Notes: generated by a model from the letters alone, not told the origin. Counted from the stretch's first letter, positions 39,361 to 53,762 are shown. The stretch is DNA of 64,000 nucleotides from Candidatus Anaeroferrophillacea bacterium (GCA_016933675.1 JAFGAM010000100.1:8928-72927), one strand, 5' to 3'. Translations and numbers: made by a program.

Positions 39361-39651
39361 GACGATGCTCCTTCACCTTGTCTCGACATCCATGCGATAT
39401 CTATGCGATCGGCCGGCATGGCCTCATTCCACACTTTTTATTAACTCGAATTATGAGGTAAAAACAATCGTGAAGTGATGCAAATGTGAGGTTTCTCTTG
39501 AGAAGTCGACAATTCACCTGGTGCGTGCGGGTGCGGTTTCATACCGAGGAAAAATCCGTGCTGGTCGGGGCCGAATCCGCCGCTTTACGGCCGCCCCGAT
39601 ATCGGTTATATTCCGGTGCATCCGCTAACGTTTACGAATAAGGAGTTTGCC

Positions 39652-40475: not shown

Positions 40476-40508
40476 GACAGGCTAAGAACATAGTAAGAAC
40501 ATAATAGA

Positions 40509-40675
40509 TTCGTTCGGGTGCTGTTTCAGCCTAACAGGGAACCCCGTGCAAACCGGGGACGGGCCCGCCGCTGTAATCGCCGACGAAAACCGCAAGATGC
40601 CACTGGCCGGCGCTGCCGTCCGGGAAGGCGCGGTGAGTAGATTGACGCGAGAGTCAGAAGACCTGCCCGAACGAA
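40509..40675 (+). promoter_or_regulatory. cobalamin (B12) riboswitch A, complete aptamer
   Basis: P1 TTCGTTCGGG/CCCGAACGAA encloses GGGTGC, AGGGAA, CCCGCCGCTGTAA, GCCACTG, GGGAAGGC and the B12 box AGTCAGAAGACCTGCC. Confidence 0.85.
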
Positions 40676-40738
40676 GCGGCTTCTCCCTTGGGTGAGGGAT
40701 GGCGTCGAGGAACTGTGAACGGGGCGTAAAAACGGATG

Positions 40739-40774
40739 CCCCCGTATCGGCTGCGGTCGATACGGGGGTTTTTT
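40739..40774 (+). terminator. intrinsic terminator (expression platform of riboswitch A)
   Basis: CCCCCGTATCG-gctgcggt-CGATACGGGGG followed by TTTTTT. Confidence 0.8.
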
Positions 40775-40854
40775 GTGCCCGGCACCTTGCATGCGCATGG
40801 AAACATCTGTTCCGGTCACTGATGGCGGGCGGTGGCGCGGGCAGCAGAGGAATC

Positions 40855-41700
40855 ATGGACATTGCCGCCGTTTTCCGGTCGCTGGAGCCGTTCCGTCAAC
40901 TGGAAGAAGATCGGCTTGTCGCCATCGTCGCGGGATTTACCCGGCGTTACTACCCGGTGGGTTTGCCGCTTTTCGGGGTCGATGAAGCTATTGCCGAGAT
41001 CGGCCTGGTTACCGCCGGGCAGGTGCGGCTGGAGGTTGCCGTCGGCAGGAATCGGTTCGTGTCTTTTCAGCGCATCGGCAGGGGCGAATTCGTCGGCCTG
41101 GAAAGTGTGCTGCTCGATGGCGGTTCACTGGTAAGAAATTTATCCGAAATTGCCGTCCGGGGATATTTCTGTTCCCGGAAAGATTTTTTCGCTTCACTGG
41201 GATCACTTCCCGATGTCCGGGGGTACTTTATGCGGGAAGCGGCCTCCCGGCTGGAAAAAGCGTTTCAGATCCTCCAGCGGGAGACGGTACCGGGCCCGGC
41301 TGCCGGCGACGCGGTATCGGCCGAACCGGTGCCTCGTGCCGTCGTGCCGCCTGCAGCCGCGTCCCCGGTTGCCCGTGCCCTGCGCTACATCGAGCAACGC
41401 TTCGCGCAGCCCATCGCACTTGACGAGATCGCCCGGGTCAACGCCATGAGCAAATCCCATTTCTCCCGGGTATTCAAGGTGGAAACCGGCTGCACCTTCA
41501 AGCGCTACCTGAACTGCCGGCGTATCGAGGCAGCAAAGGAACTGCTTTCCCGACGCGGGATGACGATAACTGAAGTCGCCATGGAGGTGGGCTTCAACGA
41601 CTTTGCCTATTTCAGCCGCACGTTTCACCGTTGTGCGGGGATGACGCCGTCCGAGTACCGGAAAACCCGCGCCGGCATGCCCCCGGCGTGGCAGACGTGA
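40855..41700 (+). CDS. transcriptional regulator: cNMP-binding-like (Crp-type) sensor domain + AraC-family HTH
   Basis: 281 aa from ATG 40855 (AGAGG RBS). The N-terminus FRSLEPFRQLEEDRLVAIVAGFTRRYYPVGLPLF...IGRGEFVGLESVL is Crp-domain-like. C-terminal AraC motifs are MSKSHFSRVFK and VGFNDFAYFSRTFHRCAGMTPSEYR. Confidence 0.8.
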   Translation: MDIAAVFRSLEPFRQLEEDRLVAIVAGFTRRYYPVGLPLFGVDEAIAEIGLVTAGQVRLEVAVGRNRFVSFQRIGRGEFVGLESVLLDGGSLVRNLSEIAVRGYFCSRKDFFASLGSLPDVRGYFMREAASRLEKAFQILQRETVPGPAAGDAVSAEPVPRAVVPPAAASPVARALRYIEQRFAQPIALDEIARVNAMSKSHFSRVFKVETGCTFKRYLNCRRIEAAKELLSRRGMTITEVAMEVGFNDFAYFSRTFHRCAGMTPSEYRKTRAGMPPAWQT

Positions 41701-41868
41701 AACAATCGCCGGCGCCGAGGGGCGTACCGGGAGGCGCGCCGGTGCCGAAACGGTGGACGGCTCCGGCCGGCCGCATGATTATGGTAATTTTGTTATAGTT
41801 TTTGGCAAACAACTCCAAGTATCAATATTTTTTTTGCGGTATACATGGCATCGTTCTCCATCATGAGA

Positions 41869-42036
41869 GGAACAGGAAAAGGGAATGCGGTGAAATTCCG
41901 CAACTGCCCCGCAACTGTAAATCCCGGTTGTCCGATCACGGACAATCAGTGCCGCGGCCAGGAATGCCACTGCTTCCTCATGGATGAGGCGGGAAGGCGG
42001 TCGCGGTCGGGAAAGTCAGGAAACCTTGCCTGTTCG
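41869..42036 (+). promoter_or_regulatory. cobalamin (B12) riboswitch B, canonical
   Basis: P1 GGAACAGG/CCTGTTC. AGGGAATGCGGTGAAATTCCGCAACTGCCCCGCAACTGTAA, GCCACTG, GGGAAGGC and the B12 box AGTCAGGAAACCTTGCC. Confidence 0.88.
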
Positions 42037-42532
42037 GTATGTTGTCGGGCTCTGTCGAGGGGCGGAGTGGCGATGAAGGTGCCGGCCGAATAACCGGGAG
42101 ATCCCCCGGTCGACCAAAGGCGCATTTCATTCTCTTCTCCTTCCCGATACGCAACATTCCGTCACATTCGTTTTCCGGCGGCTGCCGGAAATCCTCTCCC
42201 GAAAGTGGTGCCGGCAGTGCCGGCGCCGCAACCAGCGGACAAAGCCACACCCCGAGTGATCGGGGGCCGGAAAGCCATCGGGTCTCCACATTCCATGAGA
42301 CGGCCGGGTTGCCTACTGAAACATACGTACGGCGGCCCGGCCTTTTTTCCCGGGCCCGGAGCAGGGGAGGTGATGCCGGGCGCAAAGACGGTGCAGGGAT
42401 GTGGCGATGTGCGGGCGTACGGAGACTGGATACTGGATTGGAGCTTTGATCAGCGGACGCGAGAGCGCTGCCGCCCGCCGGGAACAGCAGGCGAAGCAAA
42501 GTGAAGAGGAAAGATAAAGGAGGTTTGTCATT

Positions 42533-43339
42533 ATGAAACGCAGTTTGTTGTTTGGCTGGATCATGATCGGGGTCGTATCCGCGTGGCTGCTTCCGGGCAG
42601 TGAAGCCCTGGCGGGATACTATGCCCCGGCGGCCGGTCAGGCCGGCTCGACCGCTATCTATATGAATGATGCCGCTTTTGTCGGCTGGGCCACCGGCTGG
42701 GAGGATTACAATGTCGGTAGCAACGTCGATGCCGGATGGCGGACGCCGGACAAGGCCCTCGGCAAGGCCATAGGGAGTTCTTATGATATCGTCTGTCTCG
42801 GCCGGGGTGGCTCGATTACGATGACCTTTGCCGACCCAATTGCCAACGGCAGCGGTGATGATTTTGCCGTCTTCGAGAACAGCTTCAACGATACCTTCCT
42901 CGAACTGGCCTATGTCGAGGTTTCCTCCAACGGGACGGATTTCTTCCGTTTCGCCAACGATTCCCAGACCGCAAGCGCGGTTGGCGGGTTCGGAGCGGTC
43001 GATCCGACGAATATCGGCGGTCTCGGTAGTAAATACAGACAGGGTTACGGCACGCCGTTCGACCTGGCCAGCCTGGCCGGTGTCAGTCCTCTGCTTGATT
43101 TAAACAATATCGGCTATGTGCGACTGGTCGATATCGTCGGTGACGGAACCTATTTTGATACCAGCGGTGATGTCATCTACGATCCCTATCCCACGGTCGG
43201 TTCCGCCGGTTTCGATCTGGATGCCGTCGGCGTGCTCAACAATGCCTCTCCGGTGCCGATTCCCAGTGCCGTCTGGCTGCTGGGCTCCGGTCTGGCGGGG
43301 CTGGTCGGAATTAGCCGCAAACGCGGGAACAGAGCATAA
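42533..43339 (+). CDS. secreted protein with unassigned ~200-aa domain and exosortase-type (VPxP/PEP-CTERM-like) C-terminal anchor
   Basis: AAGGAGG RBS and a signal peptide. Domain shared with 46475-48316 ([70 protein letters not shown]). Tail is [29 protein letters not shown]. Confidence 0.75.
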
Positions 43340-43390
43340 ATACGCCTCGCGGCGGATTACATTTAAACCTAATGATATTGGGAGGAAAGC

Positions 43391-44215
43391 ATGAAACGTT
43401 TCACCCTTAAAATTGCTTGCGCCATGGCGCTGCTGCTGCTGCTGACGCCGTCGCTTTACGCGGCCACGGCGACCTTCGATGATTTTGCCCTCGCTCCGGA
43501 GTCTCATTACGGCGGTGCCGGTTCAGGCGCAACCGGGTTTTCCGACGGCGGCGCCTTTTTCGAGCATAACTCCTCTGACTGGGCCTGGAACGGCTGGAGC
43601 TATTCCAATCACACCGATACCACTACCGCGGGGTATACCAACCAGTTTTCCGCCATTACCGGCGGCGGTGCCGGCGGAACGGCCAATTATGCCGTGGCCT
43701 ATGTCCCTACAGATTGGGCGGGCGGATCCTATGCTTCGCTCCCGATATCGATCATGCTGGATGATACCAGCGGCTCGTCATTGTCCGGCATGTACATCAC
43801 CAACACCACCTACGCCTACCTGTCCATGACCGGTGGCGATCAGTTCGGTAAAACCTTCGGCGGTGATACGGGAAATGATGCCGACTGGTTCAAGATGACC
43901 TACCAGGGAATCAGGTCCGACGGCTCTTTAACCGCTGCCTATGATTTTTATCTTGCCGACTATCGCTTCGCTGACAACTCTCAAGACTATATCATCGACG
44001 ACTGGACCTGGCTGAATCTCTCAGGTCTGGGCAATGGTCTCAAGGGTATCCAGTTTACCATGGCATCGTCGGATACCGGAGATTGGGGTATGAACACCCC
44101 CGCATATTTTGCCATCGACAACTTCAACGGTTCACCCGTCCCGATTCCCGGCGCCGTCTGGCTGCTGGGTTCCGGGCTGGCGGGGCTGGTCGGCCTGCGC
44201 CGGCGGCGTTTCTGA
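43391..44215 (+). CDS. DUF4465-like protein with exosortase-type C-terminal anchor
   Basis: Signal peptide. ATFDDFALAPESHY...NGWSYSNHTDTTTAGYTNQFSA...ANYAVAY...YITNTTYAYLSM..GDQFGK...FYLADY...WTWLNLSGLG...GMNTPAYFAIDNF matches my recollection of DUF4465. Tail is [26 protein letters not shown]. Confidence 0.75.
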   Translation: MKRFTLKIACAMALLLLLTPSLYAATATFDDFALAPESHYGGAGSGATGFSDGGAFFEHNSSDWAWNGWSYSNHTDTTTAGYTNQFSAITGGGAGGTANYAVAYVPTDWAGGSYASLPISIMLDDTSGSSLSGMYITNTTYAYLSMTGGDQFGKTFGGDTGNDADWFKMTYQGIRSDGSLTAAYDFYLADYRFADNSQDYIIDDWTWLNLSGLGNGLKGIQFTMASSDTGDWGMNTPAYFAIDNFNGSPVPIPGAVWLLGSGLAGLVGLRRRRF

Positions 44216-44480
44216 AACCTGGCCGCGACTGCTGTTTGACCACGGCCAGGTAACGGGATCACACCACATTAATTAAAAACAACGGCATTGATTTGACCGG
44301 GGCGGTGGTTCGTTTTTTGCGGATTGCCGCCCCGGTATGATGGCTTCGTGGTAAGAACGCCATTTTCATTCGTTGTATTGTCGATCGGGTTGTTCAGCGT
44401 ACGGCTGCGCGCACCACACGCCACAGTTTGTGCGCGCCTGGAATGAATTTCCAGCATTTACGGAAGAAAAATCAGCCTTG

Positions 44481-46418
44481 ATGAAAAAAACCGTTTGCTG
44501 GGTGCTGGTTCTCTGCTTGAGCTGGTTCGGGGTCGCGGCCGCCGAAACCACGGTGACAAACCAGACCTTGCCGCGCTTCCAGATGGATGAGATGGTGGTG
44601 ACCGCCGGGCGGGACGTGGAGCGGATCATCAACGTGCCCGCCAATGTCACCGTGATCAGCGCCGAGGACATCGAGAAATCCACCGCTACCACGATTACCG
44701 ATCTTCTCGCCGCCGAAGGGGGGCTGGTACGGCGGGGGTTTCTCGGCAACGACAAGAAGGCGGGCGTCGATATCCGCGGCATGGGCGAAACCAGCGTCAG
44801 CAGTGTCCTGGTGCTGGTCGACGGGGTGCGGATCAACCCGGCCGACATGGCCGGTCCCGATTTCAGCAGCCTGGCTCTGGACCAGGTGGAACGCATCGAG
44901 ATTCTGCGTGGTTCCGGCTCGGTGCTCTACGGCAACGGGGCCGTGGGCGGGGTGATCAACATTATTACCCGTCCCGAAGGCGGTCCGCCGGGCGGTATGG
45001 TGCGGCTGGAACGGGGGCGCTACGGGGCGGAAAAGGCGACCGTGCAGGCGCGCGGTACGGCCGGTGATTTCCGTTTCGCGGTTCTCGGGAACTACGCCTG
45101 CGAGGACGGTTACCGGGAGAACGGCGATCTGACCAACCGCAACCTCGATGCCCGGGCGGCGTGGGATATCGGCACCCGGCTGACCCTCTCGGGCGAGATG
45201 CGGTATCACCGGGACCATTACGGCTTTCCCGGCCCCCTGACCGAATCACAGTTCGAAGAAGACCCCCGGCAGAGCCTGGATGATACCGGCAGCGACGGTG
45301 ACACGGAAGAAGAGGCATATGTCGCCGGTCTGGACGGTTTTTTCGGGGCGTATGGCGACCTGTCGGTCAAGTTTACCGCCCGGGAGCGGGAGAACCGCTG
45401 GGTCATGCTCAGGTCGCCCGGTGAAATCCGCGAGCGCAGCCGGGATCTCAACCTGAAACACCGCCTCGAACATGACTTTACCGGCTGGCTGCAGAGCGAA
45501 CTGATTGCCGGGATTGATTACCGGGAAGCGGATTATCATCAGGTAACCTCGTTCGCGGTCAAGCCCTACGATCTCGACAGCGCCGGCTGGTATGCCCTTG
45601 AAAAAATCACCCTCTTCGACCACTGGATCATCCAGGCCGGCTACCGCCGCACCGATTTCACCTATGACGTCAGGAAGACCGACGCCGGCGAAACCTGGCA
45701 TTCGAATGATGTTACCCTCGGCATTGTGCGCCGCTTCTCCTGCGGCGACTTCCTTTCCGGCAGCCTGTTCGCCAATTACGCCACCAGCTTCCGGGTGCCC
45801 GATGTCGACGAACTGGGATTCGCCACCGACGATATCCGGCCCCAGGACGGCGAGCATCGTGACGCCGGGGTGAAACTCCGCTTCCGGAATCGCGCCGAGC
45901 TGATGCTGACCTGGTTTGATACCCGTATCGAGGATGAGATCTGGTTCGATGCCTTCAACTACATCAACACCAATTACGATCATCCGACGCGAAGAACCGG
46001 GCTGGAAACGAGCTTCCGGCTCTTTCTGCCGGCCGCGCTGCGCTGCTGGGGGAGTCATACCTATACCAAAGCGCGCTTCGAAGGCATCGATTACAAGGTG
46101 CCCACGGTGCCGCGGCACAAGCTGGTTCTGGGGTTGAATTGGGCGCCCCTGGAATGGCTGGAGGTGGGGGCGACCTACGACCGCGTGGGATCACGCCCCC
46201 AGGGCGGTGATCCCACCGTGGGCAGCCGGTATAAGGACATGCCGTCCTACGAGGTGGTGAACTGCAAGGTGACCGCCAGATACGAGCCGTACAACCTGAA
46301 GGTGTTCGTTGCGCTTACCAACCTCTTCAATGAACACTATTACAGTCTTTCGTATTACGATAACGTCTATCCGTCGCCGGGCCTCGGGGCGCGTCTCGGC
46401 CTCGAGTGGCGGATATAG
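44481..46418 (+). CDS. TonB-dependent receptor, BtuB-like size and context
   Basis: 645 aa from ATG 44481. Signal peptide, TonB box DEMVVTA, plug (NVTVISAEDIEKSTATTITDLL...VLVDGVRIN...IEILRGSGSVLYGNGAVGGVINIIT), and a beta-barrel to the C-terminus. Confidence 0.88.
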   Translation: MKKTVCWVLVLCLSWFGVAAAETTVTNQTLPRFQMDEMVVTAGRDVERIINVPANVTVISAEDIEKSTATTITDLLAAEGGLVRRGFLGNDKKAGVDIRGMGETSVSSVLVLVDGVRINPADMAGPDFSSLALDQVERIEILRGSGSVLYGNGAVGGVINIITRPEGGPPGGMVRLERGRYGAEKATVQARGTAGDFRFAVLGNYACEDGYRENGDLTNRNLDARAAWDIGTRLTLSGEMRYHRDHYGFPGPLTESQFEEDPRQSLDDTGSDGDTEEEAYVAGLDGFFGAYGDLSVKFTARERENRWVMLRSPGEIRERSRDLNLKHRLEHDFTGWLQSELIAGIDYREADYHQVTSFAVKPYDLDSAGWYALEKITLFDHWIIQAGYRRTDFTYDVRKTDAGETWHSNDVTLGIVRRFSCGDFLSGSLFANYATSFRVPDVDELGFATDDIRPQDGEHRDAGVKLRFRNRAELMLTWFDTRIEDEIWFDAFNYINTNYDHPTRRTGLETSFRLFLPAALRCWGSHTYTKARFEGIDYKVPTVPRHKLVLGLNWAPLEWLEVGATYDRVGSRPQGGDPTVGSRYKDMPSYEVVNCKVTARYEPYNLKVFVALTNLFNEHYYSLSYYDNVYPSPGLGARLGLEWRI

Positions 46419-46474
46419 ACAGAGCTTGATGAACCGGCATCTTGAACATCATTAACATGCGGGGAGAATAATTG

Positions 46475-48316
46475 ATGAAAGTAGCGATGGTGCGCAAACT
46501 TATGGTAAATATTATTCTTTTTCTTTCATTGCTGCTGGCCGGTGCCGCGCCGGTGTTCGCGGCCTACGGCGACCATGCCGGCCTATATGGTGAGAATGAC
46601 GGGATTCATGGCGGCAACCGCCTGGATCCGGGGGCTTACCCGAGCATGGATTCGCGTATCAAGGGCTGGGCCACCGAAGTGGTGAACTCGTGGCGTCCCG
46701 ATGCCGCCACTTTCGGTTCCCCGACCGATGTGCTCGGCCAGCCGGGCGGTACCTTCGACGTATTTTCGCTTGGCGATGGCGGCAGTATCACGGTGACCTT
46801 CCCGGTACCCATCGGCCGGGGTGACGGACCCGATTTCGCGGTCTGGGAAAATGGTTTTGTCTCCGTGCAGGGAGGTGAAACGGGGATGCTGTTCGCCGAA
46901 CTGTGTTATGTGGAGGTTTCCTCCGACGGCGTGCATTTTGTCCGTTTTCCCAGTGTGAACGGCAGTCCCGATTCCCTGGGCGGCTTCGACTGCATCGATC
47001 CGACCTACTATCACAATCTTGCCGGCAAGCATCCCAACGGCAACGACGGCCGCGATGAGGGCACGCCGTTCGAACTGAATGTTCTTGCCAACGACCCTGA
47101 GGTACTGAACGGAAATGTCGATCTCGACAATATTCTCTATGTCAGACTGATCGACCTGGTCGGCGACGGCTCGACCTTCGATTCTCTGGGCAATCCCATA
47201 TACGATCCGTATCCCACCCCCTTCGGCACCGGCGGCTGCGATGTCGACGCGGTGGGGGTTTTGAATCAGGGCGGGATCAACCAGCCGCCTGATCAGCCGA
47301 CGCCTGTAGCTCCGGAGGATGGCGCGGCCGAGGTGACCTTGCCGGTAGTCTTGTCAAGTTCCGCTTTCAGCGATCCGGATATTGATTCAGAACATGGGTC
47401 AACCCAGTGGCAGGTCAGTGTGAGTGCCGGCTTCGAAACAACGGTTTTCGATAGCACAAGTGCGACCGAGCTGATCGATATTACCCTGGATGACTCCGAT
47501 CTCAACGACGGTATCACCTACTACTGGCGGGCGCGGCATTACGACGATGACGGCGCCGCATCGGCCTGGTCGGCGACATCCAGCTTCACCACCGCGGCGG
47601 CGGTGATTCCGAATTCGGCGCCGAATCAGCCGAGCCTGAGCGCCCCGGCAAACGGTGCGACGGATATCTCTATGCCGGTGACTTTGTCAACCTCGGTCTT
47701 CAGCGATCCGGATGTTGATTCAGAACATGGGTCAACCCAGTGGCAGGTGAGCGAAAGTTCCGGTTTCGGTACGACGGCGTACGATGCAACGAGCAGTGAA
47801 CATCTGACCGCCTTGACACTCGACAATACCTTCCTGCTGGCGGATACGACCTATTACTGGCGGGCGCGTCATTACGACGATGACGGTGTAGCATCGGCCT
47901 GGTCGGCGACATCCAGCTTCACCACCATTGTCGGCGGCAACAGCCAGGCCTGGCCGGAGAATCCGCTGGTGCCGGTGGTCTGGCCCGCCCAGGTGGACCC
48001 GTTGACCACCCCGGTTCAGGTGGGTGCCTGCCCCGATGTTACGGTGCGGCCGTCGCTGCAGGTGTCGGCCGCCGATGTCGGCAAAACGGCGACGCTGATC
48101 ATGTATATCTATTTTCCTGATTACGGCTTCGGGATCAGTATGCGTTCCGCGTCGAAGAAACTGACAACCGAAACCGTTTTCGACCTGATCCCGACCGAAC
48201 TTGATCTCAGCGATGTCGGGAGGTACTCGTTCCACATCTACTACGGCTATATGGTCGGTTCAGATATCATCTACAGCGCCTACGCGCTGACGGTGGGTGA
48301 TGCCTGTGGTAATTGA
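46475..48316 (+). CDS. large secreted multidomain protein: paralog of the 42533 domain + two FN3-like 111-aa repeats + unique C-terminal domain
   Basis: GGGGAG RBS and a signal peptide. [70 protein letters not shown]. Then 2x (SDPD[IV][12 protein letters not shown]...[24 protein letters not shown]). Confidence 0.75.
47261..47926 (+). repeat. intragenic tandem duplication, 2 x 333 bp (FN3-like modules)
   Basis: Unit ends (ttcaccacc) lie at 47593 and 47926. Long near-identical stretches include ttcagcgatccggat.ttgattcagaacatgggtcaacccagtggcaggt and tactactggcgggcgcg.cattacgacgatgacgg. Confidence 0.8.
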
Positions 48317-48430: not shown

Positions 48431-48519
48431 TTCGTTCGGGTGCTATTTCAGCCTGACAGGGAACCCCGTGCAAGTCGGGGGCGGGTCACTGAATCGCAAC
48501 CGGGGCGATAAAACGGATG
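48431..48519 (+). promoter_or_regulatory. truncated cobalamin-riboswitch paralog C (5' half only; B12 box and 3' P1 strand missing)
   Basis: TTCGTTCGGGTGCTATTTCAGCCTGACAGGGAACCCCGTGCAAGTCGGGG is about 92% identical to the start of riboswitch A. It then jumps to AACCGGGGCGATAAAACGGATGCC, which matches the pre-terminator segment of A. There is no AGTCAG..CCTGCC box and no CCCGAACGAA. Confidence 0.55.
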
Positions 48520-48554
48520 CCCCATACCGGCGGATGCCGGTATGGGGCTTTTTT
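48520..48554 (+). terminator. intrinsic terminator following element C
   Basis: CCCCATACCGGC-ggat-GCCGGTATGGGG followed by CTTTTTT. Confidence 0.8.
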
Positions 48555-49234: not shown

Positions 49235-49263
49235 TTGACACCGCGTTGTGCCCCTGTTATAGT
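49235..49263 (+). promoter_or_regulatory. sigma70-type promoter of the TonB2-type energizer operon
   Basis: TTGACA (49235-49240), 17 nt, TATAGT (49258-49263), about 110 nt upstream of ATG 49372. Confidence 0.5.
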
Positions 49264-49371: not shown

Positions 49372-50157
49372 ATGCTGCCGATGAGGATTCCTCTCCATCT
49401 GTTCCTGTGCCTGTTCTGCCTGGCGATGGTGCTGCCGCCTGCTGTGGTCCGGGCTGCAACGGTGCCGGTGGATGCCGCCGGCGACACGGTGAATCGCACT
49501 GTCGCCGAGCAGGAAAAACGTCAGCGCGAGGTTTCCGCCTGGGAGGAAGAGCGCCGCGAACTGCTGGAAACCCGTCACGAACTGGAGCAGCGGCTCGAAC
49601 TGCTGCGCTTCCGTTGCGCGAAGTACGAGGGCTATACCGACCGGCGGCGGCAGACCATCGCCGAGCTGGAGGCGGGTATCGCCGCCCAGCGGCAGATTGC
49701 CGACGAGCTGGAGCCGCTGCTGGATGAAACCCTGGCGAAAACCCGGATGTTTGCTGCCGCCGATCTGCCGTTTCTCGTCGACGAGCGGGAGAACCGGTTT
49801 CTCCAGATCGCCGAGCTGCTGGATAGCTACGATGCCTCGCTGGCGGAGAAGCTTCGCCGGGTGCTGGAGATGCTGCACATCGAGGCGCGATACGGCCAGG
49901 GGGTCGAGGCCTATGACGCCCGGCTGCCGGTGGGCGGCGGCGAGGCCGCGGTCAAGGTGCTGCGGGTGGGACGCGTTGGGCTGTATTACCTGACCCTCGA
50001 CGGCACCGCGGCCGGCTGGTACAATCCTGCCGCCGGGGTCTGGGAGCCGCTTTCCGGCGGATCCCGCGACGCTGTGCGCGAGGCGTTGCGAATGGCGATG
50101 AAGCAGCGCGCGGTGGATCTCGTCACCCTGCCGGTGGCGGCAGGAGGGCGGCCATGA
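49372..50157 (+). CDS. DUF3450-domain protein (TtpB-like component of TonB2-type systems)
   Basis: Signal peptide then a long coiled coil, with a C-terminal LRVGRVGLYYLTLDG...GWYNPAAGVWEPL pattern. First gene of the ExbB/ExbD/TonB cluster. Confidence 0.75.
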   Translation: MLPMRIPLHLFLCLFCLAMVLPPAVVRAATVPVDAAGDTVNRTVAEQEKRQREVSAWEEERRELLETRHELEQRLELLRFRCAKYEGYTDRRRQTIAELEAGIAAQRQIADELEPLLDETLAKTRMFAAADLPFLVDERENRFLQIAELLDSYDASLAEKLRRVLEMLHIEARYGQGVEAYDARLPVGGGEAAVKVLRVGRVGLYYLTLDGTAAGWYNPAAGVWEPLSGGSRDAVREALRMAMKQRAVDLVTLPVAAGGRP

Positions 50158-51809
50158 GCTTCCGCATGAATCGTGTACCGAATCCCGATTTGCATGATGC
50201 ATTTCGTTGTGCAGACCGACCCTGCTATACGGTCATACAGACCGGTTTTTCGCCGGGCGGCGATGAATTCGCCGCAACCCTGTGTCAAGTTCCTGCAGGT
50301 GCCGGTTGCGGATGTGCCAAGCCGGCGTCCGCGGCCGGCCGGATGATACGGACGGGGCTGTACGGCCGATTGCCGTGGGTTGCCGTCACCGTGATTCCGC
50401 TGCTGTTTATCATCCTCTGCGTCGCGATGATCGATGGCGGACCGCCGGCCACTGCCGCCGAATCCGCCGATGGCTTCGCCGCCGTGCGCCGGGGACTGCA
50501 GGAAGAACTGAACGCGGCCCACGCGGAACGGCGGCAGACCACGGCTGACATCGCCGCCGAACGCCGTGGACTTCAGGATGACATCGTCGCTCTGCAGCGT
50601 GATGTGGCGGCGGCGGAGGCCGAACTGAACCGCCTGGAGAAGGTCCACGACCAACTGCTGGCGGAGGAAAAACGGCTCGCGGAAGCTCAGCGCGAGGCGA
50701 TCGCCGCCATGGACGAGGTCCGGGGTACCGTGCGTACCGGGGCCCGGGACCTGCTGGCGCTGCTGGAAAGTTCCCTGGTGTCGGGCCACCGGCCAGGCCG
50801 GGCAGAGCCGTTTCGGGAACTGCTGGCCGCCGGCCGGGCGCCGCGGATGGAGGAAATCCGCGCGCTCATCGCCGCCTATGACGACGAACTGTGGGGCAGC
50901 GGCACGGTCGAGCGGCAGCCGGCGGCGATGGTGGGGCTCGACGGCCGCCGGCGGCAGGCCGAGGTGACCCGTATCGGTGCGCTCACCGCCATCTGCCAGG
51001 ATGACGAGGCGGGCCTGTCCTTCGCCGTCTACGGCAAGGAACATGACGCCTTCCTGGCCGTTTCCCGCGTCCCCTGGTTCCACCGCCGGACGGTGAAGCG
51101 CTTCCTCGCCGGTGAGGATGCGGATGTCTGCCTCGATTTCTCCGGCGGCGCCACGGTGCAGCGCCTGGCATTGCAGCCCACCCCCTGGGAGCGGCTCAAA
51201 TCCGGCGGCGTGCTGGTCTGGCCGATTCTTTTTATCGGCATTGTTGCTCTCGGTCTGAGCGTCGAGCGCTTTTTCTTCCTGCGCCGGGTGAAGAGTAACA
51301 CCGACACGGTGATGGGGCGGGTGACCGGCCTGGTGGCCGGCGGCGAGTGGGACGCGAGTCTCGAGCTGGTACAGCGGCGCACCGGGCCGGTATACAACGT
51401 GCTCGCCGCCGGGCTGCGGGCCCGTCGGAGTACCCGGGAGGTGTTGGAGCACGTCTTCGAGGAAGCGATCATGAAGGAGCTGCCGCGGTTGGAGAAGTTT
51501 CTGCCCACCCTCCAAGTGCTGGCGGCGGTGGCGCCGCTTTTGGGCCTGCTGGGTACCGTCACCGGGATGATCGACACCTTCCAGGTCATCACCATCTACG
51601 GCACCGGTGACCCCAAGATGATGTCCGGCGGCATCTCCGAGGCCCTCGTCACCACCAAACTCGGCCTGATGGTGGCCATTCCCATTATCCTCATTCATAC
51701 CTTCTTCTCCCGCCGGGTGGAGGCGATCATCGGCGATATGGAGGAGAAGGCCGTGGGCCTCACGGTGGCAATCATCAACCGCGACAACGGCCGCGCTGAG
51801 GGCGCCTGA
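50154..51809 (+). CDS. large MotA/TolQ/ExbB proton-channel family protein (TtpC-like)
   Basis: N-terminal TM + coiled coil + C-terminal ExbB core (LAAVAPLLGLLGTVTGMIDTF...GISEALVTTKLGLMVAIP). ATGA overlap at 50154. An alternative start at ATG 50343 is plausible because 50160-50340 looks non-coding. Confidence 0.8.
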   Translation: MSFRMNRVPNPDLHDAFRCADRPCYTVIQTGFSPGGDEFAATLCQVPAGAGCGCAKPASAAGRMIRTGLYGRLPWVAVTVIPLLFIILCVAMIDGGPPATAAESADGFAAVRRGLQEELNAAHAERRQTTADIAAERRGLQDDIVALQRDVAAAEAELNRLEKVHDQLLAEEKRLAEAQREAIAAMDEVRGTVRTGARDLLALLESSLVSGHRPGRAEPFRELLAAGRAPRMEEIRALIAAYDDELWGSGTVERQPAAMVGLDGRRRQAEVTRIGALTAICQDDEAGLSFAVYGKEHDAFLAVSRVPWFHRRTVKRFLAGEDADVCLDFSGGATVQRLALQPTPWERLKSGGVLVWPILFIGIVALGLSVERFFFLRRVKSNTDTVMGRVTGLVAGGEWDASLELVQRRTGPVYNVLAAGLRARRSTREVLEHVFEEAIMKELPRLEKFLPTLQVLAAVAPLLGLLGTVTGMIDTFQVITIYGTGDPKMMSGGISEALVTTKLGLMVAIPIILIHTFFSRRVEAIIGDMEEKAVGLTVAIINRDNGRAEGA

Positions 51810-51828
51810 GGCGGACGGGGAGGTAAGC

Positions 51829-52452
51829 ATGGAACTGCTGACCCGCATCTATCACTACGTTACGAGCGGGGGCCCGCTGATGGTGCCCATCGCCGCGGTG
51901 TCGCTGCTGCTCTGGGTGCTGGTGATCATGAAACTGCAGGAGGTTTACGAACTTTCGCGCCGGGAGGTGGGCGCCGGTGAGGCGGTGGCCATGGTTGTTC
52001 GTGGTGACGACGGTTCGCTGACGGGTACCGTACTCGGCCACGTGGTGTTCCATTTTCTCGAACAGCGTACCGCCGACCGGCAGGTCAACCTGGCGTTGCT
52101 CTCGTCCCTGGTGGCCCGGGAGCAGCGGCGCCTGGAGCAGGGCCTCGACGTCATCCTCGTACTTGCCACAGTGGCGCCGCTTTTGGGTCTGCTGGGCACG
52201 GTTGCCGGTATGATCGGTACCTTCGACAGCATCGCGGTGCATGGCACCGGCAACGCCCGGGCTATGGCCGGGGGCATCTCCGAGGCGCTGATTACCACCC
52301 AGAGCGGCCTCTTCGTCTCCATCCCGGGGCTGTTCATGGCCAACTTCCTGCGCCGGCGGGTGGAAGGGTTTGCGCATATGCTCGAGGAATTCCGCGCCGG
52401 GATGATGCAGACCGTCGGCGGGCCGGCGGCTGCGGCGGAGGGCGGCCGATGA
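51829..52452 (+). CDS. exbB: ExbB (MotA/TolQ/ExbB family)
   Basis: 207 aa. LATVAPLLGLLGTVAGMIGTF and GISEALITTQSGLFVSIP. Confidence 0.9.
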   Translation: MELLTRIYHYVTSGGPLMVPIAAVSLLLWVLVIMKLQEVYELSRREVGAGEAVAMVVRGDDGSLTGTVLGHVVFHFLEQRTADRQVNLALLSSLVAREQRRLEQGLDVILVLATVAPLLGLLGTVAGMIGTFDSIAVHGTGNARAMAGGISEALITTQSGLFVSIPGLFMANFLRRRVEGFAHMLEEFRAGMMQTVGGPAAAAEGGR

Positions 52453-52862
52453 TCAACGCTAGAGGCCGGCTGCGCCGGCAGCGCGGGGCGGCGGAGATCA
52501 ACATGGCGCCCATGCTGGACATGGTGTTCATCCTGCTGATCTTCTTTCTTGTCACCACCAGTTTCGTCCGTGAGGCCGGAGTCGAGGTGCGCCGCCCGGT
52601 GGCCCGCACCGCTGCCGCCGAGGCCGCCGCCAGCCTGCGGGTGGGTATCGAGGCGTCAGGGCGGATATTCATGGATGGCCGGCAGGTGGACGAACGCAGT
52701 GTCCGCGCCCTGGTGGAACGCTTTCTGGCCGAGAATCCCGATGGCAGCGTCGTCATCGTCGCCGACCGCGAGACGCCTACCGGGGTGACCATCAGGGTGG
52801 TGGACAACTGCCGCCTGGCGGGGGCGGTGAACGTCGCCGTTGCCGCCACCCGGGAGTCCTGA
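52449..52862 (+). CDS. exbD: ExbD/TolR biopolymer transport protein
   Basis: 137 aa. INMAPMLDMVFILLIFFLVTT and a C-terminal periplasmic domain. ATGA overlap with exbB. Confidence 0.9.
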   Translation: MINARGRLRRQRGAAEINMAPMLDMVFILLIFFLVTTSFVREAGVEVRRPVARTAAAEAAASLRVGIEASGRIFMDGRQVDERSVRALVERFLAENPDGSVVIVADRETPTGVTIRVVDNCRLAGAVNVAVAATRES

Positions 52863-52863
52863 G

Positions 52864-53550
52864 ATGTCCTGCGAACACGGCACCTCCCGGCGACTGCCGC
52901 TGGGGATTGCCGGCGCCGTGGTGATCAACATCGTCCTGCTGGCGCTTATTCCGCTGCTGTTTCAGCGCCGGTCGCTGCCCAAACGACTGCCGCGGATCGA
53001 CCCGATACCGGTCTGGCAGCCGGCCGCGGCGTGCGCAGAGGACCGGCGGAAGATGGAACCGGAGAAGCCGGAGTCGATGGAACCGCTCTTCCAGCCGCCG
53101 GCGCCGGTGCTGCCGCCGCTGGATTTGGCGCCCGAACTGCCGCGGCCGGATGTCGACGCGCCGCAGCTTGACATGACCTTTTCGCCGGAACTGAAAGCGG
53201 TGGTGCCGTCGATCACCATGCCTCGGCCGGCGGCGCCGGCCCCCGAGCCGGTCGGCCCCTTCAGCCCCGGCGACCTGGACCGGCAGCCCATGGCGCTGCA
53301 GACGGTGGAGCCGGTCTATCCCTTCGCCGCCCGGCGAAGGGGGATCGAAGGACAGGTGGAAGTCCGCTTTGTTGTCGATGCCGCCGGGGCGGTGCGGGAC
53401 ATTTTCATCGTCAACGCCGAGCCGCCGGGGATCTTCGAGGACGCCGTGCGCCGCACTCTTTCCCGCTGGCGTTTCAAGCCCGGCATGCGCCGCGGCGAAG
53501 CCGTGGCGACGCTGGTGCAGACTGCCATCGTCTTCAAGCTGGACCGCTGA
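52864..53550 (+). CDS. tonB: energy transducer TonB
   Basis: N-terminal TM, Pro-rich spacer (PPAPVLPPLDLAPELPRPDVDAP...), and C-terminal TonB domain (YPFAARRRGIEGQVEVRFVVDAAGAVRD...AVRRTLSRWRFKPG). Confidence 0.88.
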   Translation: MSCEHGTSRRLPLGIAGAVVINIVLLALIPLLFQRRSLPKRLPRIDPIPVWQPAAACAEDRRKMEPEKPESMEPLFQPPAPVLPPLDLAPELPRPDVDAPQLDMTFSPELKAVVPSITMPRPAAPAPEPVGPFSPGDLDRQPMALQTVEPVYPFAARRRGIEGQVEVRFVVDAAGAVRDIFIVNAEPPGIFEDAVRRTLSRWRFKPGMRRGEAVATLVQTAIVFKLDR

Positions 53551-53578
53551 TTTCCTGCAGGAGTCAGGAGTCGGAATC

Positions 53579-53642
53579 GATGGCGCCGTAACCGTGGCCG
53601 AAATATACCGAAAAGGGATGGCACCCTGACAGTTCCATCGAA
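53579..53642 (+). repeat. mini-copy of the interspersed repeat (5' box + 3' hairpin only)
   Basis: GATGGCGCCGTAACCGTGG ... GGGATGGCACCCTGACAGTTCCATCGAAG, about 30 nt after the tonB stop. Confidence 0.55.
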
Positions 53643-53762
53643 GCGCCCTGAATCTGGAGGGGCCCCCTGTGGTTACCCGATTCGCCGGACTGATCTGGAT
53701 CTCGGGGGGATCGCGTGAAGGTCGAGCGATACGGCATCAATTGGGCCAACCTTGATTCTATC

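What the first reader, a model, noticed from the sequence alone, without database searches (positions are those of the whole stretch)
41869..48316. Cobalamin-riboswitch operon: BtuB-like receptor plus exosortase-anchored DUF4465 protein and a paralogous pair of unassigned secreted domains (candidate novel corrinoid-capture system)
Seen in the sequence:
- A canonical B12 riboswitch at 41869-42036, followed by a leader of about 500 nt.
- Four co-directional genes follow.
- (1) 42533-43339: signal peptide, an unassigned domain of about 200 aa, and the tail [25 protein letters not shown].
- (2) 43391-44215: DUF4465-like with a nearly identical tail, [26 protein letters not shown].
- (3) 44481-46418: TonB-dependent receptor with the TonB box DEMVVTA.
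- (4) 46475-48316: the same unassigned domain as gene 1, then two FN3-like repeats and a unique C-terminal domain, with no anchor.

Established knowledge: B12 riboswitches gate btuB-type uptake loci. To my recollection, DUF4465 proteins are the BtuH class of surface B12 binders, described as lipoproteins in Bacteroides.

Inference: here the accessory proteins are tethered by a PEP-CTERM/VPxP-type exosortase signal instead of a lipid anchor. The duplicated domain (GGSIT.TF / DF.V.EN / YVEVSS.G..F.RF / GTPF.L / VRL.D.VGDG..FD / YDPYPT / D.DAVGVLN) has no function I can assign. It is a good candidate for a new extracellular corrinoid-binding or corrinoid-processing module.
Basis: partly seen in the sequence, partly recalled or inferred. 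Interest (0 to 1): 0.78.

Follow-up and report, generated by a model that had tools for sequence, protein, structure and literature searches.

The report
B12-scavenging operon with BtuH-like proteins
This operon is predicted to be switched off by vitamin B12 and on by the biofilm signal c-di-GMP, and it encodes an outer-membrane B12 importer plus three surface proteins, two of which carry a widespread, unannotated domain that is a distant relative of the Bacteroides B12-binding domain BtuH.

Summary
A cobalamin riboswitch lies at 41829-42046 (74 bits). Four co-directional secreted-protein genes follow. Genes 1 and 4 share a domain (46% identity, E 3e-44). Genes 1 and 2 end in near-identical PEP-CTERM-like tails.

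Three corrections:
- The "500-nt leader" holds a second riboswitch, a c-di-GMP-I-class aptamer (42234-42317). Its 3' half forms the 5' arm of an intrinsic terminator (42302-42348). This is the rare AdoCbl/c-di-GMP "NOT A AND B" gate described in 2022.
- DUF4465 is the BtuJ class of B12 binders, not BtuH.
- The "unassigned" domain X is itself BtuH-like. The best Foldseek hits are BtuG1-H and BtuH2 (TM 0.53-0.54). The only PDB sequence hit is BtuG1's H-domain. hhalign against BtuH gives 92% probability.

Domain X has no Pfam or NCBIfam model. It occurs in at least 585 species genomes. In the 80 best loci, spanning about 9 phyla:
- 59 carry a B12-class riboswitch.
- 59 carry DUF4465.
- 50 carry a BtuB-like receptor.
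- In Planctomycetota, X and DUF4465 are fused in one protein.

Best reading: a corrinoid-capture system analogous to Bacteroides BtuB/H/J, apparently anchored through the C-terminus rather than an N-terminal lipid. I rate it a new variant of a known kind. Corrinoid binding by X is inferred, not shown.

The parts
40499..40684 (+). Cobalamin riboswitch 1, upstream of the AraC-family regulator
   Evidence: RF00174, 115.3 bits, E 3.5e-28.
40738..40775 (+). Intrinsic terminator of riboswitch 1: a 14-bp stem followed by T6
   Evidence: Terminator scan.
40855..41700 (+). AraC-family transcription regulator (281 aa); orthologs carry an N-terminal cNMP-binding domain
   Evidence: HTH_18 and HTH_AraC. 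The gene call in L081 gives this start. Orthologs in L083 and L085 carry PF00027. The order Cbl -> AraC -> Cbl -> operon is conserved in L002, L085 and L086; L082 and L083 show variants of it.
41802..41831 (+). Promoter-like site (TTGGCA, 16-18 nt spacer, TATTTT) just upstream of riboswitch 2
   Evidence: Consensus scan only, 9 of 12 matches.
41829..42046 (+). Cobalamin riboswitch 2 aptamer (the one in the finding)
   Evidence: RF00174, 74.1 bits, E 2.1e-16, full-length match to the model.
42031..42166 (+). Long purine-arm/pyrimidine-arm hairpin that overlaps the 3' strand of the aptamer P1; candidate expression platform with an unresolved mechanism
   Evidence: MFE fold, z-score -3.6, no shuffle folded as well. 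No U-tract follows. A similar purine/pyrimidine design is visible in L002.
42234..42317 (+). c-di-GMP-I-class (GEMM-I) aptamer
   Evidence: RF01051 48.7 bits (gathering 35). RF03167 57.4 bits (gathering 59). Five related aptamers upstream of X or DUF4465 genes show compensatory changes in 7 of 17 predicted pairs.
42302..42348 (+). Intrinsic terminator (GGCCGGGUUGCCUAC...GGCGGCCCGGCC plus U6) whose 5' arm is the 3' part of the c-di-GMP aptamer, which implies an ON switch
   Evidence: The MFE of 42228-42365 forms this hairpin. L002 and L082 show the same design.
42517..42523 (+). Shine-Dalgarno sequence AAGGAGG of gene 1
   Evidence: Read from the sequence.
42533..43339 (+). Gene 1: signal peptide, BtuH-like domain X (42614-43252) and a VPxP/PEP-CTERM-like tail
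   Evidence: No Pfam match. AF2 model pLDDT 91, pTM 0.91. Foldseek best hits 8blw_B and 7biz. hhalign against BtuH 92%. Tail scores 22.2 bits against TIGR03370.
43391..44215 (+). Gene 2: BtuJ-like DUF4465 B12-binding jellyroll with a PEP-CTERM-like tail
   Evidence: PF14717, 1.6e-56. PDB hits: 9HMU (B12 complex) 1.6e-28 and 9FCT (BtuJ1) 1.5e-23. The NTPAYF loop holding the conserved B12-binding Tyr is present (one search read against PMC13398666).
44481..46418 (+). Gene 3: BtuB-like TonB-dependent transporter (TonB box DEMVVTA)
   Evidence: Plug and barrel domains. Nearest solved structure is E. coli BtuB, 1.5e-19. TIGR01779 scores 150 bits, below the equivalog cutoff of 600.
46475..48316 (+). 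Gene 4: signal peptide, domain X (46601-47275), two Ig-like repeats (47291-47614 and 47615-47938) and an orphan C-terminal domain (47939-48313); no anchor
   Evidence: Orthologs with the same architecture follow the transporter gene in L011, L021, L028, L082 and L086; L018 has the architecture without a transporter hit.
48519..48548 (+). Strong bidirectional terminator that closes the operon
   Evidence: 13-bp stem with 10 GC pairs, followed by T6.
49372..53550 (+). Adjacent DUF3450-ExbB-ExbB-ExbD-TonB energising cluster with its own promoter (49235-49263)
   Evidence: Pfam and promoter scan (11 of 12 matches). Functional coupling to gene 3 is inferred.

Best explanation
The locus is an outer-membrane corrinoid-scavenging system.

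Components:
- Gene 3 is a BtuB-like TonB-dependent transporter. It is probably energised by the adjacent ExbB/ExbD/TonB cluster.
- Gene 2 is a surface BtuJ-type (DUF4465) B12 binder.
- Genes 1 and 4 carry domain X, a remote homolog of the Bacteroides BtuH B12-binding domain.

Proposed roles of X (inferred). X captures corrinoids outside the cell and passes them to the transporter. Gene 1 is held at the surface by a PEP-CTERM/exosortase-type C-terminal signal. Gene 4 presents X at the end of a two-Ig stalk. This mirrors BtuH1 (domain only) and BtuH2 (Ig stalk plus domain), with the polarity reversed because the anchor in relatives of gene 4 is C-terminal rather than an N-terminal lipid.

Regulation (predicted from sequence and folding). 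Transcription from about 41.8 kb must pass two independent riboswitches. The AdoCbl aptamer is a predicted OFF switch. The c-di-GMP-I-class aptamer is a predicted ON switch, because ligand binding would sequester the 5' arm of the terminator. The operon would therefore be made only when B12 is scarce and c-di-GMP is high. That is the sessile, matrix-producing state in which exosortase-dependent surface proteins are expected to be deployed. A second B12 riboswitch controls an adjacent AraC-type regulator, which suggests a further regulatory layer.
For: Shown:
- Both aptamers pass Rfam gathering scores.
- The terminator overlaps the 3' part of the c-di-GMP aptamer in the MFE fold, and the same design recurs in L002 and L082.
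- The DUF4465 assignment is supported by the conserved NTPAYF loop and by PDB B12-complex homologs.
- The nearest solved structure to gene 3 is BtuB.

X resembles BtuH by three independent routes:
- Foldseek finds TMq above 0.5 only for BtuG1-H (8blw_B, E 1e-4) and BtuH2 (7biz).
- A diverse X profile searched against 177,635 PDB sequences has one hit below E=1: BtuG1 residues 427-476, inside its H-domain (E 0.026).
- hhalign of the X profile against a BtuH alignment gives 91.9% probability and E 7e-7. The invariant Asn116 of X aligns with the BtuH2 B12 contact Asn399.

Comparative genomics of the 80 best loci, out of at least 585 species hits:
- A B12-class riboswitch is present in 59 of 80 loci. 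In 11 of the 21 negatives, under 700 nt of sequence is held upstream of the cluster (contig end or fetch limit).
- DUF4465 is present in 59 of 80, and a gene-3-like receptor in 50 of 80.
- The commonest gene orders are riboswitch-J-B-X (13 loci) and riboswitch-X-J-B (11 loci).
- X and DUF4465 are fused in single Planctomycetota proteins, for example L010 (X, three DUF4465 domains and a dockerin) and L007.
- BtuF, BtuC and BtuD genes sit directly upstream in L082.

c-di-GMP-class aptamers recur upstream of X or DUF4465 genes in four relatives (L001, L002, L082, L083).

Literature:
- The AdoCbl/c-di-GMP-I tandem is a described NOT-A-AND-B gate (PMC9481103).
- BtuH binds B12 (PMC8941943). BtuG1 carries a fused BtuH domain (PMC10404256).
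- c-di-GMP riboswitches precede PEP-CTERM genes in another bacterium (PMC12530212).
Against: - No binding or expression data exist for this system.
- The sequence-level link between X and BtuH covers only about 36-60 residues.
- The BtuH2 contacts His476, Tyr510, Trp511 and Trp577 lie in a region that is about 60 aa shorter in X and cannot be aligned. The binding pocket may therefore differ or be absent.
- Foldseek also returns CBM32/discoidin-type sandwiches at E of about 1e-3.
- The expression platform of cobalamin riboswitch 2 has no recognisable U-tract terminator in the window. Its OFF mechanism is assumed.
- The c-di-GMP aptamer scores better against the RF03167 variant model. I did not find that variant's ligand reported in the papers I read.
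- Gene 3 is far below the BtuB equivalog cutoff.
- The tails are just below the VPLPA-CTERM cutoff, and no exosortase gene is in the window.
- The 80 loci are the closest relatives of gene 1. The wider family (2,029 representatives of 50%-identity clusters) was not sampled for context.
Confidence: 0.72

Rival explanations
1. Domain X is a glycan- or matrix-binding module of the CBM32/discoidin type. It would position the real B12 binder (DUF4465) in the exopolysaccharide layer and would not bind corrinoids itself.
For: - Foldseek returns many F5/8-C, CBM32, CBM6 and CBM35 sandwiches at E of 1e-3 to 1e-2, with TM of about 0.5 when normalised by target length.
- PEP-CTERM proteins and c-di-GMP control are linked to exopolysaccharide in the literature (PMC12530212).
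- The X-DUF4465 fusions would also fit an anchor-plus-binder design.
Against: - Gene 1 would then be an anchor domain joined to an anchor tail, with no functional part.
- X occurs with the receptor and without DUF4465 in 11 of the 21 loci that lack a DUF4465 hit, with gene orders BX (7 loci) and riboswitch-B-X (3 loci).
- The best structural coverage and the only sequence or profile signal point to the BtuH B12-binding domain. Its authors likewise reported only modest similarity to a CBM32 protein, AlyQ (PMC8941943).
- A B12-riboswitch association of 74% is not expected for a generic glycan binder.
Confidence: 0.12
2. X is a transporter partner, acting as a lid or hand-off adaptor in the way BtuG does for Bacteroides BtuB. 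It would dock on the receptor and accept B12 from BtuJ-like proteins without being a high-affinity free scavenger.
For: - The X gene sits immediately downstream of the receptor gene in many loci. In Desulfobacterales loci the two ORFs overlap by 4 nt, for example L013, L019, L021, L031, L046 and L055.
- X is conserved far more strongly (52-79% identity) than the DUF4465 (33-50%) or receptor (24-37%) genes in the same loci. That pattern would fit a domain with multiple interaction surfaces.
Against: - Planctomycetota loci have X and DUF4465 under B12 riboswitches with no gene-3-like receptor within the roughly 6 kb fetched on each side (0 of 17).
- Homology to a domain that binds B12 directly (BtuH) makes ligand binding the simpler expectation.
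- This rival overlaps with the best explanation and is not exclusive of it.
Confidence: 0.12
3. The operon imports or processes something other than complete corrinoids, such as cobalt chelates, cobinamide precursors or another tetrapyrrole. The B12 riboswitch would then only report cofactor status.
For: - Gene 3 is not a BtuB equivalog (150 bits against a cutoff of 600).
- Cobalamin riboswitches also control cobalt transport genes (stated in PMC9481103).
Against: - Eight divergent DUF4465 proteins bind B12 (PMC13398666), and gene 2 keeps the binding-loop motif.
- BtuFCD-type genes are adjacent in L082.
- The nearest solved structure to gene 3 is BtuB.
Confidence: 0.04

Closest known systems
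BtuH (BtuH1 BT1488, BtuH2 BT1956, and the H-domain of BtuG1 BT1490) of Bacteroides thetaiotaomicron
   Same: - Secreted, apparently surface-displayed domain encoded in B12-riboswitch loci beside a BtuB-type transporter.
- Same fold by Foldseek (TMq 0.53-0.54).
- Shared core motif SLG-GG-IT-F...G-DF-V-N-F at 92% hhalign probability.
- Paralogs occur both as a domain-only protein and as a domain on an Ig-like stalk.
   Different: - No similarity detectable by ordinary single-sequence or shallow-profile search.
- X is about 55 aa shorter (213 against 267 aa), and most BtuH2 B12 contacts cannot be aligned.
- The anchor is C-terminal (PEP-CTERM-like, or other C-terminal signals in relatives), not an N-terminal lipid. 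The stalk polarity is reversed accordingly.
- X is found in Desulfobacterota, Planctomycetota, Verrucomicrobiota, Proteobacteria and other phyla. A 2026 review places BtuH homologs predominantly in Bacteroidota plus three Firmicutes (PMC13616437).
BtuJ1/BtuJ2 and other DUF4465 (PF14717) B12-binding jellyroll proteins
   Same: Gene 2 is a clear member: 191.9 bits, the NTPAYF HI-loop tyrosine, and PDB homologs solved with B12.
   Different: Gene 2 carries a PEP-CTERM-like tail rather than a lipoprotein signal. The DUF4465 paper I read does not mention such tails.
The tandem AdoCbl / c-di-GMP-I riboswitch 'NOT A AND B' gate of Desulfobacca acetoxidans (Sherlock et al. 2022, PMC9481103)
   Same: - A cobalamin aptamer followed by a c-di-GMP-I-class aptamer with its own terminator.
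- Several cobalamin and c-di-GMP aptamers clustered within a few kb.
   Different: - That paper did not identify the regulated genes and speculated about conductive pili. Here the regulated genes are a corrinoid-capture operon.
- In relative L083 the aptamer order is reversed.
- In the window, no U-tract terminator follows the cobalamin aptamer.
- Whether the D. acetoxidans locus encodes X or DUF4465 could not be checked.
E. coli BtuB with TonB-ExbBD
   Same: A small TonB-dependent transporter with a TonB box, under a B12 riboswitch, with BtuB as the nearest solved structure.
   Different: - Only plug-level sequence similarity, below the equivalog cutoff.
- It works with three extracellular accessory proteins that E. 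coli lacks.
PEP-CTERM/exosortase protein sorting (VPLPA-CTERM subclass, TIGR03370)
   Same: Signal peptide, a C-terminal VPxP motif, a hydrophobic helix and an Arg/Lys cluster.
   Different: - The two window tails score just below the curated cutoff.
- The cargo is a vitamin-binding protein rather than the usual low-complexity matrix protein.
- No exosortase gene lies within the 64 kb.

Membership tests
Cobalamin riboswitch (RF00174) | Covariance-model score at or above the gathering threshold, over the full aptamer | tested here: met
   74.1 bits against 31.5, model positions 1-189.
Cobalamin riboswitch (RF00174) | Ligand-dependent expression platform (terminator or RBS sequestration) | tested here: inconclusive
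   A long hairpin at 42031-42166 overlaps the P1 3' strand, but no U-tract terminator was found. Riboswitch 1 at 40499-40684 does have one.
c-di-GMP-I riboswitch (RF01051 / clan CL00126) | Covariance-model score at or above the gathering threshold | tested here: met
   RF01051: 48.7 bits against 35. The sister model RF03167 scores 57.4 against 59.
c-di-GMP-I riboswitch (RF01051 / clan CL00126) | Ligand-contact nucleotides equivalent to G20, A47 and C92 of Vc2 | tested here: inconclusive
   My reading of the alignment gives G, A and C at the corresponding positions, which would predict c-di-GMP rather than c-AMP-GMP. The position mapping rests on my memory of the Vc2 structure. Binding was not tested.
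c-di-GMP-I riboswitch (RF01051 / clan CL00126) | Expression platform coupled to the aptamer | tested here: met
   The terminator at 42302-42348 shares its 5' arm with the aptamer 3' half. The design is conserved in L002 and L082.
DUF4465 / BtuJ B12-binding proteins (PF14717) | Pfam model above the cutoff | tested here: met
   191.9 bits against 25.
DUF4465 / BtuJ B12-binding proteins (PF14717) | Conserved HI-loop motif (G/N)TPAYF with the B12-binding tyrosine | tested here: met
   Gene 2 reads ...GMNTPAYFAIDNF. Pro237 and Tyr239 are invariant in 17 homologs. The motif is defined in PMC13398666.
DUF4465 / BtuJ B12-binding proteins (PF14717) | Binds cobalamin | not testable with these tools
   Needs purified protein.
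BtuH B12-binding domain family | Sequence homology to BT1956, BT1488 or BT1490 (BLAST E <= 0.03 in Putnam 2022) | tested here: not met
   A shallow X profile finds nothing in the PDB even at E=10. Only a diverse profile reaches BtuG1-H, at E 0.026. hhalign gives 92% over 36 columns. X is a remote relative, not a member by the published criterion.
BtuH B12-binding domain family | Same fold as the 7BIZ C-terminal domain | tested here: met
   Foldseek: 8blw_B E 1e-4 and TMq 0.53; 7biz_B TMq 0.54. All other hits have TMq of 0.45 or less. The AF2 model has pLDDT 91.
BtuH B12-binding domain family | B12-contact residues Gln333, Asn399, His476, Tyr510, Trp511, Trp577 | tested here: inconclusive
   Asn399 aligns with the invariant Asn116 of X. 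Gln333 lies in a PAPGQF insert that is absent from X. The other four lie in a region that cannot be aligned.
BtuB (TIGR01779 / NF007926 equivalog) | Equivalog model score above the cutoff | tested here: not met
   150 bits against 599.7, and 102 bits against 836. Gene 3 is BtuB-like by context and by nearest structure only.
PEP-CTERM / VPLPA-CTERM exosortase substrates | C-terminal motif, transmembrane helix and basic cluster, with an N-terminal signal peptide | tested here: met
   Read directly. hhalign aligns the X and DUF4465 family profiles only over these tails.
PEP-CTERM / VPLPA-CTERM exosortase substrates | Curated HMM (TIGR03370 or TIGR02595) above the cutoff | tested here: not met
   22.2 and 24.0 bits against 25.35. 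Relatives do better: 27 of 48 match TIGR03370 and 25 of 48 match TIGR02595 at E <= 0.1.
PEP-CTERM / VPLPA-CTERM exosortase substrates | An exosortase (EpsH/XrtA) encoded in the genome | not testable with these tools
   None among the window ORFs scanned. The rest of the genome is not available.

The most novel reading that the evidence does not exclude
Domain X defines a large, cross-phylum family of extracellular corrinoid binders that has not been recognised. It is present in at least 585 species genomes and in 2,029 representatives of 50%-identity clusters.

On this reading, X is an ancient sister of Bacteroides BtuH. Together with BtuJ-like proteins and a small TonB-dependent transporter, it would form the common surface B12-capture module of Desulfobacterota, Planctomycetota, Verrucomicrobiota, Kiritimatiellota and many Proteobacteria.

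In Desulfobacterota, deployment would be tied to the biofilm state through a B12/c-di-GMP RNA logic gate and C-terminal sorting signals. This would also supply a gene context for the tandem AdoCbl/c-di-GMP riboswitches reported in 2022.
Probability: 0.55. Interest if true: 0.75.

Novelty: new variant of a known kind. Interest (0 to 1): 0.66.

Why it matters
Vitamin B12 is made by few microbes and needed by most. How cells capture it shapes microbial communities.

Multi-protein surface relays for B12 (BtuG, BtuH, BtuJ) are known in detail only from gut Bacteroides. The latest review I read places BtuH essentially within Bacteroidota. This locus indicates three things:
- A remote BtuH-like domain with no Pfam or NCBIfam model is a core part of B12-riboswitch-controlled uptake loci in many environmental phyla.
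- Such binders are attached through several different C-terminal signals rather than lipid anchors.
- In sulfate-reducer relatives their production is gated by both B12 and c-di-GMP.

The locus gives a directly testable candidate: a 213-aa domain that models confidently. It also supplies a plausible gene context for a published riboswitch logic gate whose regulated genes were not identified.

Tried and rejected
- Pfam and NCBIfam scans of gene 1 and of 48 family members found no model for the domain. The only matches were the sorting tails and a weak, consistent hit to the Leptospira LIC_13355 lipoprotein family.
- A shallow X profile searched against PDB sequences found nothing, even at E=10. 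Only a deliberately diverse profile worked.
- I tested whether X is a divergent DUF4465. hhalign aligns only the PEP-CTERM tails, so I rejected this.
- A 50-aa BtuG1 fragment used as a database query returned a single 80-aa fragment. It was rescued by stitching frameshifted ORFs in L087.
- A search for an exosortase in the window found none.
- A search for a canonical terminator after cobalamin riboswitch 2 found none in the window or in L086, and one terminator-like hairpin in L085.
- I tried to link the Desulfobacca acetoxidans riboswitch cluster to these genes.
- The gene 4 C-terminal domain (residues 489-613) has no homolog in the 86 loci and no Pfam match. It is left unassigned.
- The apparent X-DUF4465 fusions in the Aquabacterium MAGs L012 and L029 have a PEP-CTERM motif in mid-protein, so I did not count them as clean fusions.

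Full report
**Observation**

Rfam places a full-length cobalamin riboswitch at 41829-42046 on the + strand (74.1 bits, E 2e-16). An independent assembly that carries an identical gene 1 calls the same four genes (L081).
- Gene 2 is DUF4465 (1.6e-56).
- Gene 3 has Plug and barrel domains.
- Gene 4 has two Ig_Rha78A_N-like repeats that are 65% identical to each other.
- Gene 1 and the gene 4 N-terminus share a domain of about 210 aa (46% identity, E 3e-44).
- The tails of genes 1 and 2 are nearly identical. They score just under the VPLPA-CTERM cutoff (22.2 and 24.0 bits against 25.35), while 36 of 48 relatives hit Pfam PEP-CTERM.

The same Rfam scan finds a c-di-GMP-I-class aptamer at 42234-42317. 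RF01051 scores 48.7 bits, above gathering. The sister model RF03167 scores 57.4 bits against 59.

Folding 42228-42365 gives a hairpin of about 14 base pairs at 42302-42342, followed by U6. Its 5' arm is the 3' part of the aptamer. Ligand binding should therefore prevent termination, which makes this an ON switch. L002 and L082 have the same design. Five such aptamers upstream of related operons show compensatory changes in 7 of 17 predicted pairs.

A cobalamin aptamer followed by a c-di-GMP-I aptamer is the rare "NOT A AND B" gate reported from Desulfobacca acetoxidans, with two c-di-GMP examples and one c-AMP-GMP example. Its regulated genes were not identified there (PMC9481103).

The platform of the cobalamin aptamer is unresolved. 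A long hairpin at 42031-42166 overlaps the P1 3' strand (z-score -3.6), but no U-tract follows.

**The known parts**

DUF4465 is now a characterised B12-binding augmented jellyroll. It comprises BtuJ1 and BtuJ2 of B. thetaiotaomicron plus divergent members from other clades; it is not BtuH (PMC13398666). Gene 2 matches the B12-bound structure 9HMU at 1.6e-28 and BtuJ1 (9FCT) at 1.5e-23. It keeps the NTPAYF loop with the binding tyrosine.

The closest solved structure to gene 3 is E. coli BtuB (1.5e-19), but gene 3 is far below the BtuB equivalog cutoff.

Downstream, a strong terminator at 48519-48548 and a near-consensus promoter precede a DUF3450-ExbB-ExbB-ExbD-TonB-TPR cluster.

**The unassigned domain X**

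X has no Pfam or NCBIfam model and no PDB sequence relative when searched with a shallow profile. The family is nevertheless large:
- More than 5,400 database hits.
- 2,029 representatives of 50%-identity clusters at E <= 1e-3, in proteins of 171 to 2,569 aa among the 150 listed.
- At least 585 species genomes.

An AlphaFold2 model of residues 28-240 is confident (pLDDT 91, pTM 0.91). Foldseek against the PDB gives 8blw_B as the best hit (E 1e-4, TMq 0.53), and 7biz_B and 7biz_A have the highest coverage (TMq 0.54 and 0.52). Every other hit is a discoidin or CBM32-type sandwich with TMq of 0.45 or less.
- 7BIZ is BtuH2, whose C-terminal globular domain binds B12 and had "no known structural homologs" (PMC8941943).
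- 8BLW chain B is BtuG1, which carries a fused BtuH domain (PMC10404256).

I then looked for sequence-level support.
- A profile built from 27 diverse X domains has a single PDB hit below E=1. It is BtuG1 residues 427-476, inside the H-domain (E 0.026).
- That fragment led to a frameshifted Bacteroidota-type B12 locus (L087). Two BtuH-like domains stitched from it score E 8.5e-5 and 6e-4 against the X profile at PDB-size Z.
- One stitched domain is a genuine BtuH-family member (7biz 4e-60).
- The printed alignments let me rebuild the BtuH2 domain sequence. Its numbering reproduces the published contacts Q333, N399, H476, Y510, W511 and W577.
- hhalign of the X profile against a BtuH alignment gives 91.9% probability (E 7e-7) over the core [32 protein letters not shown]. 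The invariant Asn116 of X aligns with Asn399 of BtuH2.

The remaining contacts lie in a region about 60 aa shorter in X and cannot be aligned. X is therefore a remote BtuH relative. It is not a member by the published BLAST criterion, and its pocket is unverified. X is not a divergent DUF4465 either: the two profiles align only over the sorting tails.

**Comparative genomics**

The 80 best genome loci span Desulfobacterota, Planctomycetota, Verrucomicrobiota, Kiritimatiellota, Beta- and Gammaproteobacteria, Spirochaetota, Gemmatimonadota and Myxococcota.
- tblastn finds a DUF4465 gene in 59 loci and a gene-3-like receptor in 50.
- An iterated nhmmer model finds cobalamin riboswitches in 57 loci, nearly all upstream on the same strand. 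Rfam confirmed every nhmmer-positive locus it re-scanned (13 in all) and added 2 more, giving 59 of 80.
- In 11 of the 21 negatives, under 700 nt of sequence is held upstream of the cluster.
- The commonest gene orders are riboswitch-J-B-X (13 loci), riboswitch-X-J-B (11 loci) and riboswitch-X-J-J-J (7 loci).
- In Planctomycetota, X and DUF4465 are fused in one protein. L010 has X, three DUF4465 domains and a dockerin in 2,013 aa. L007 has DUF4465 followed by X.
- In several Desulfobacterales loci the X ORF overlaps the end of the receptor ORF by 4 nt.
- In L082, BtuF-, BtuC- and BtuD-type genes under their own B12 riboswitch lie directly upstream.
- X is much better conserved than its neighbours: 52-79% identity, against 33-50% for DUF4465 and 24-37% for the receptor.

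The caveat is that these are the closest relatives of gene 1. Context across the wider family was not sampled.

**Regulatory architecture in close relatives**

The window, L002, L085 and L086 show the order cobalamin riboswitch -> AraC-type regulator -> cobalamin riboswitch -> operon (the window and L002 with a c-di-GMP aptamer after the second riboswitch). L082 and L083 show variants of it, and the regulator often has a cNMP-binding N-terminus. c-di-GMP-class aptamers lie directly upstream of X or DUF4465 genes in the window, L001, L002, L082 and L083. In L083 the c-di-GMP aptamer precedes the cobalamin aptamer, which argues that the two switches act independently.

**Mechanism**

Shown: the aptamers, the terminator overlap, the domain identities, the fold and profile similarity, and the genomic linkage.

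Inferred:
- X binds corrinoids.
- X and the DUF4465 protein hand corrinoids to the transporter.
- The tails are exosortase substrates.
- The cobalamin switch is OFF and the c-di-GMP switch is ON, so expression needs low B12 and high c-di-GMP.

The c-di-GMP input makes sense if PEP-CTERM cargo can be deployed only when the matrix and exosortase machinery are active. c-di-GMP riboswitches precede PEP-CTERM genes in another bacterium (PMC12530212).

The architectures mirror Bacteroides. Gene 1 resembles BtuH1 (domain only). Gene 4 resembles BtuH2 (Ig stalk plus domain), with polarity reversed to suit C-terminal anchoring. Some gene-4-like proteins in other genomes do end in hydrophobic, basic tails (L011 and L028).

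**Novelty**

Each regulatory and transport element is known. The following are not in the literature I could search:
- Domain X as a BtuH-like family outside Bacteroidota. A September 2026 review places BtuH predominantly in Bacteroidota plus three Firmicutes.
- PEP-CTERM-type display of B12 binders.
- The link between the AdoCbl/c-di-GMP gate and a corrinoid-capture operon.

I rate the finding a new variant of a known kind, with interest 0.66. My confidence is about 0.9 that the operon serves corrinoid acquisition and about 0.6 that X itself binds corrinoids.

Noticed in passing
window 40499-41700: A second, stronger cobalamin riboswitch (115 bits) with a clean terminator (40738-40769 plus T6) controls an AraC-family transcription regulator rather than a transporter or enzyme gene. 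The order Cbl -> AraC -> Cbl -> operon recurs in L002, L085 and L086, with variants in L082 and L083. Orthologs in L083 and L085 carry a cNMP-binding domain. The target and ligand of the regulator are unknown.
   Followed up: partly
L013, L018, L019, L021, L031, L046, L055 (C-termini of X and DUF4465 proteins): In Desulfobacterales-type loci, the X and DUF4465 proteins end in a Gly-rich stretch followed by 'GCF[IV]' and a few more residues, instead of a PEP-CTERM tail. This may be a different C-terminal sorting signal. Verrucomicrobial X proteins instead end in 'RF[WY]R[LV]...'.
   Followed up: no
L010, L033, L041, L043, L076, L078 (Planctomycetota): Giant proteins of about 2,000 aa under B12 riboswitches. 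Pfam confirmed the L010 architecture: N-terminal X, three DUF4465 domains and a dockerin. The others have X and three DUF4465 tblastn hits inside a single ORF. No gene-3-like receptor was found within about 6 kb in any of the 17 Planctomycetota loci.
   Followed up: partly
L001-L080, tblastn identities: X is far better conserved across phyla (52-79% identity to gene 1) than the DUF4465 (33-50%) or receptor (24-37%) genes in the same loci. The cause is unexplained; it could be strong constraint or horizontal transfer.
   Followed up: no
X family core GGSIT..DFxVFEN..YVEVS (gene 1 residues 90-143): 41 of 48 family members give weak hits (best 2.8e-5) to NCBIfam NF033170, the LIC_13355 family lipoprotein of Leptospira. 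This may be another distant, lipid-anchored branch of the same superfamily.
   Followed up: no
window 42128-42175, and L002 around 3490-3530: A C-rich, G-poor stretch forms the 3' arm of the long hairpin after cobalamin riboswitch 2. It could act as a Rho utilisation site when unpaired. This is speculation and was not tested.
   Followed up: no
L012 5833-7635 and L029 5899-7491 (Aquabacterium MAGs): Single ORFs read through X, a PEP-CTERM motif, DUF4465 and a second PEP-CTERM tail with no stop codon between. This could be a real fusion or an assembly error.
   Followed up: no
L084 (Desulfosarcina sp. BuS5, CP087952.1): The homologous locus is broken up by two identical group II introns with reverse-transcriptase genes. 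The DUF4465 gene there is a 106-aa fragment.
   Followed up: no
window 47939-48313 (gene 4 residues 489-613): The C-terminal domain of gene 4 has no Pfam match and no homolog in any of the 86 fetched loci, including syntenic gene-4-like proteins.
   Followed up: partly
window 39616-40422, 55212-57155 and 57480-58463: Three sizeable ORFs (268, 647 and 327 aa) with no Pfam family. The first has a signal-peptide-like N-terminus and lies just upstream of riboswitch 1.
   Followed up: no
window 49372-54980: A DUF3450-ExbB-ExbB-ExbD-TonB-TPR cluster with a near-consensus promoter (TTGACA, 17-nt spacer, TATAGT at 49235-49263) lies immediately downstream of the operon terminator.
   Followed up: partly
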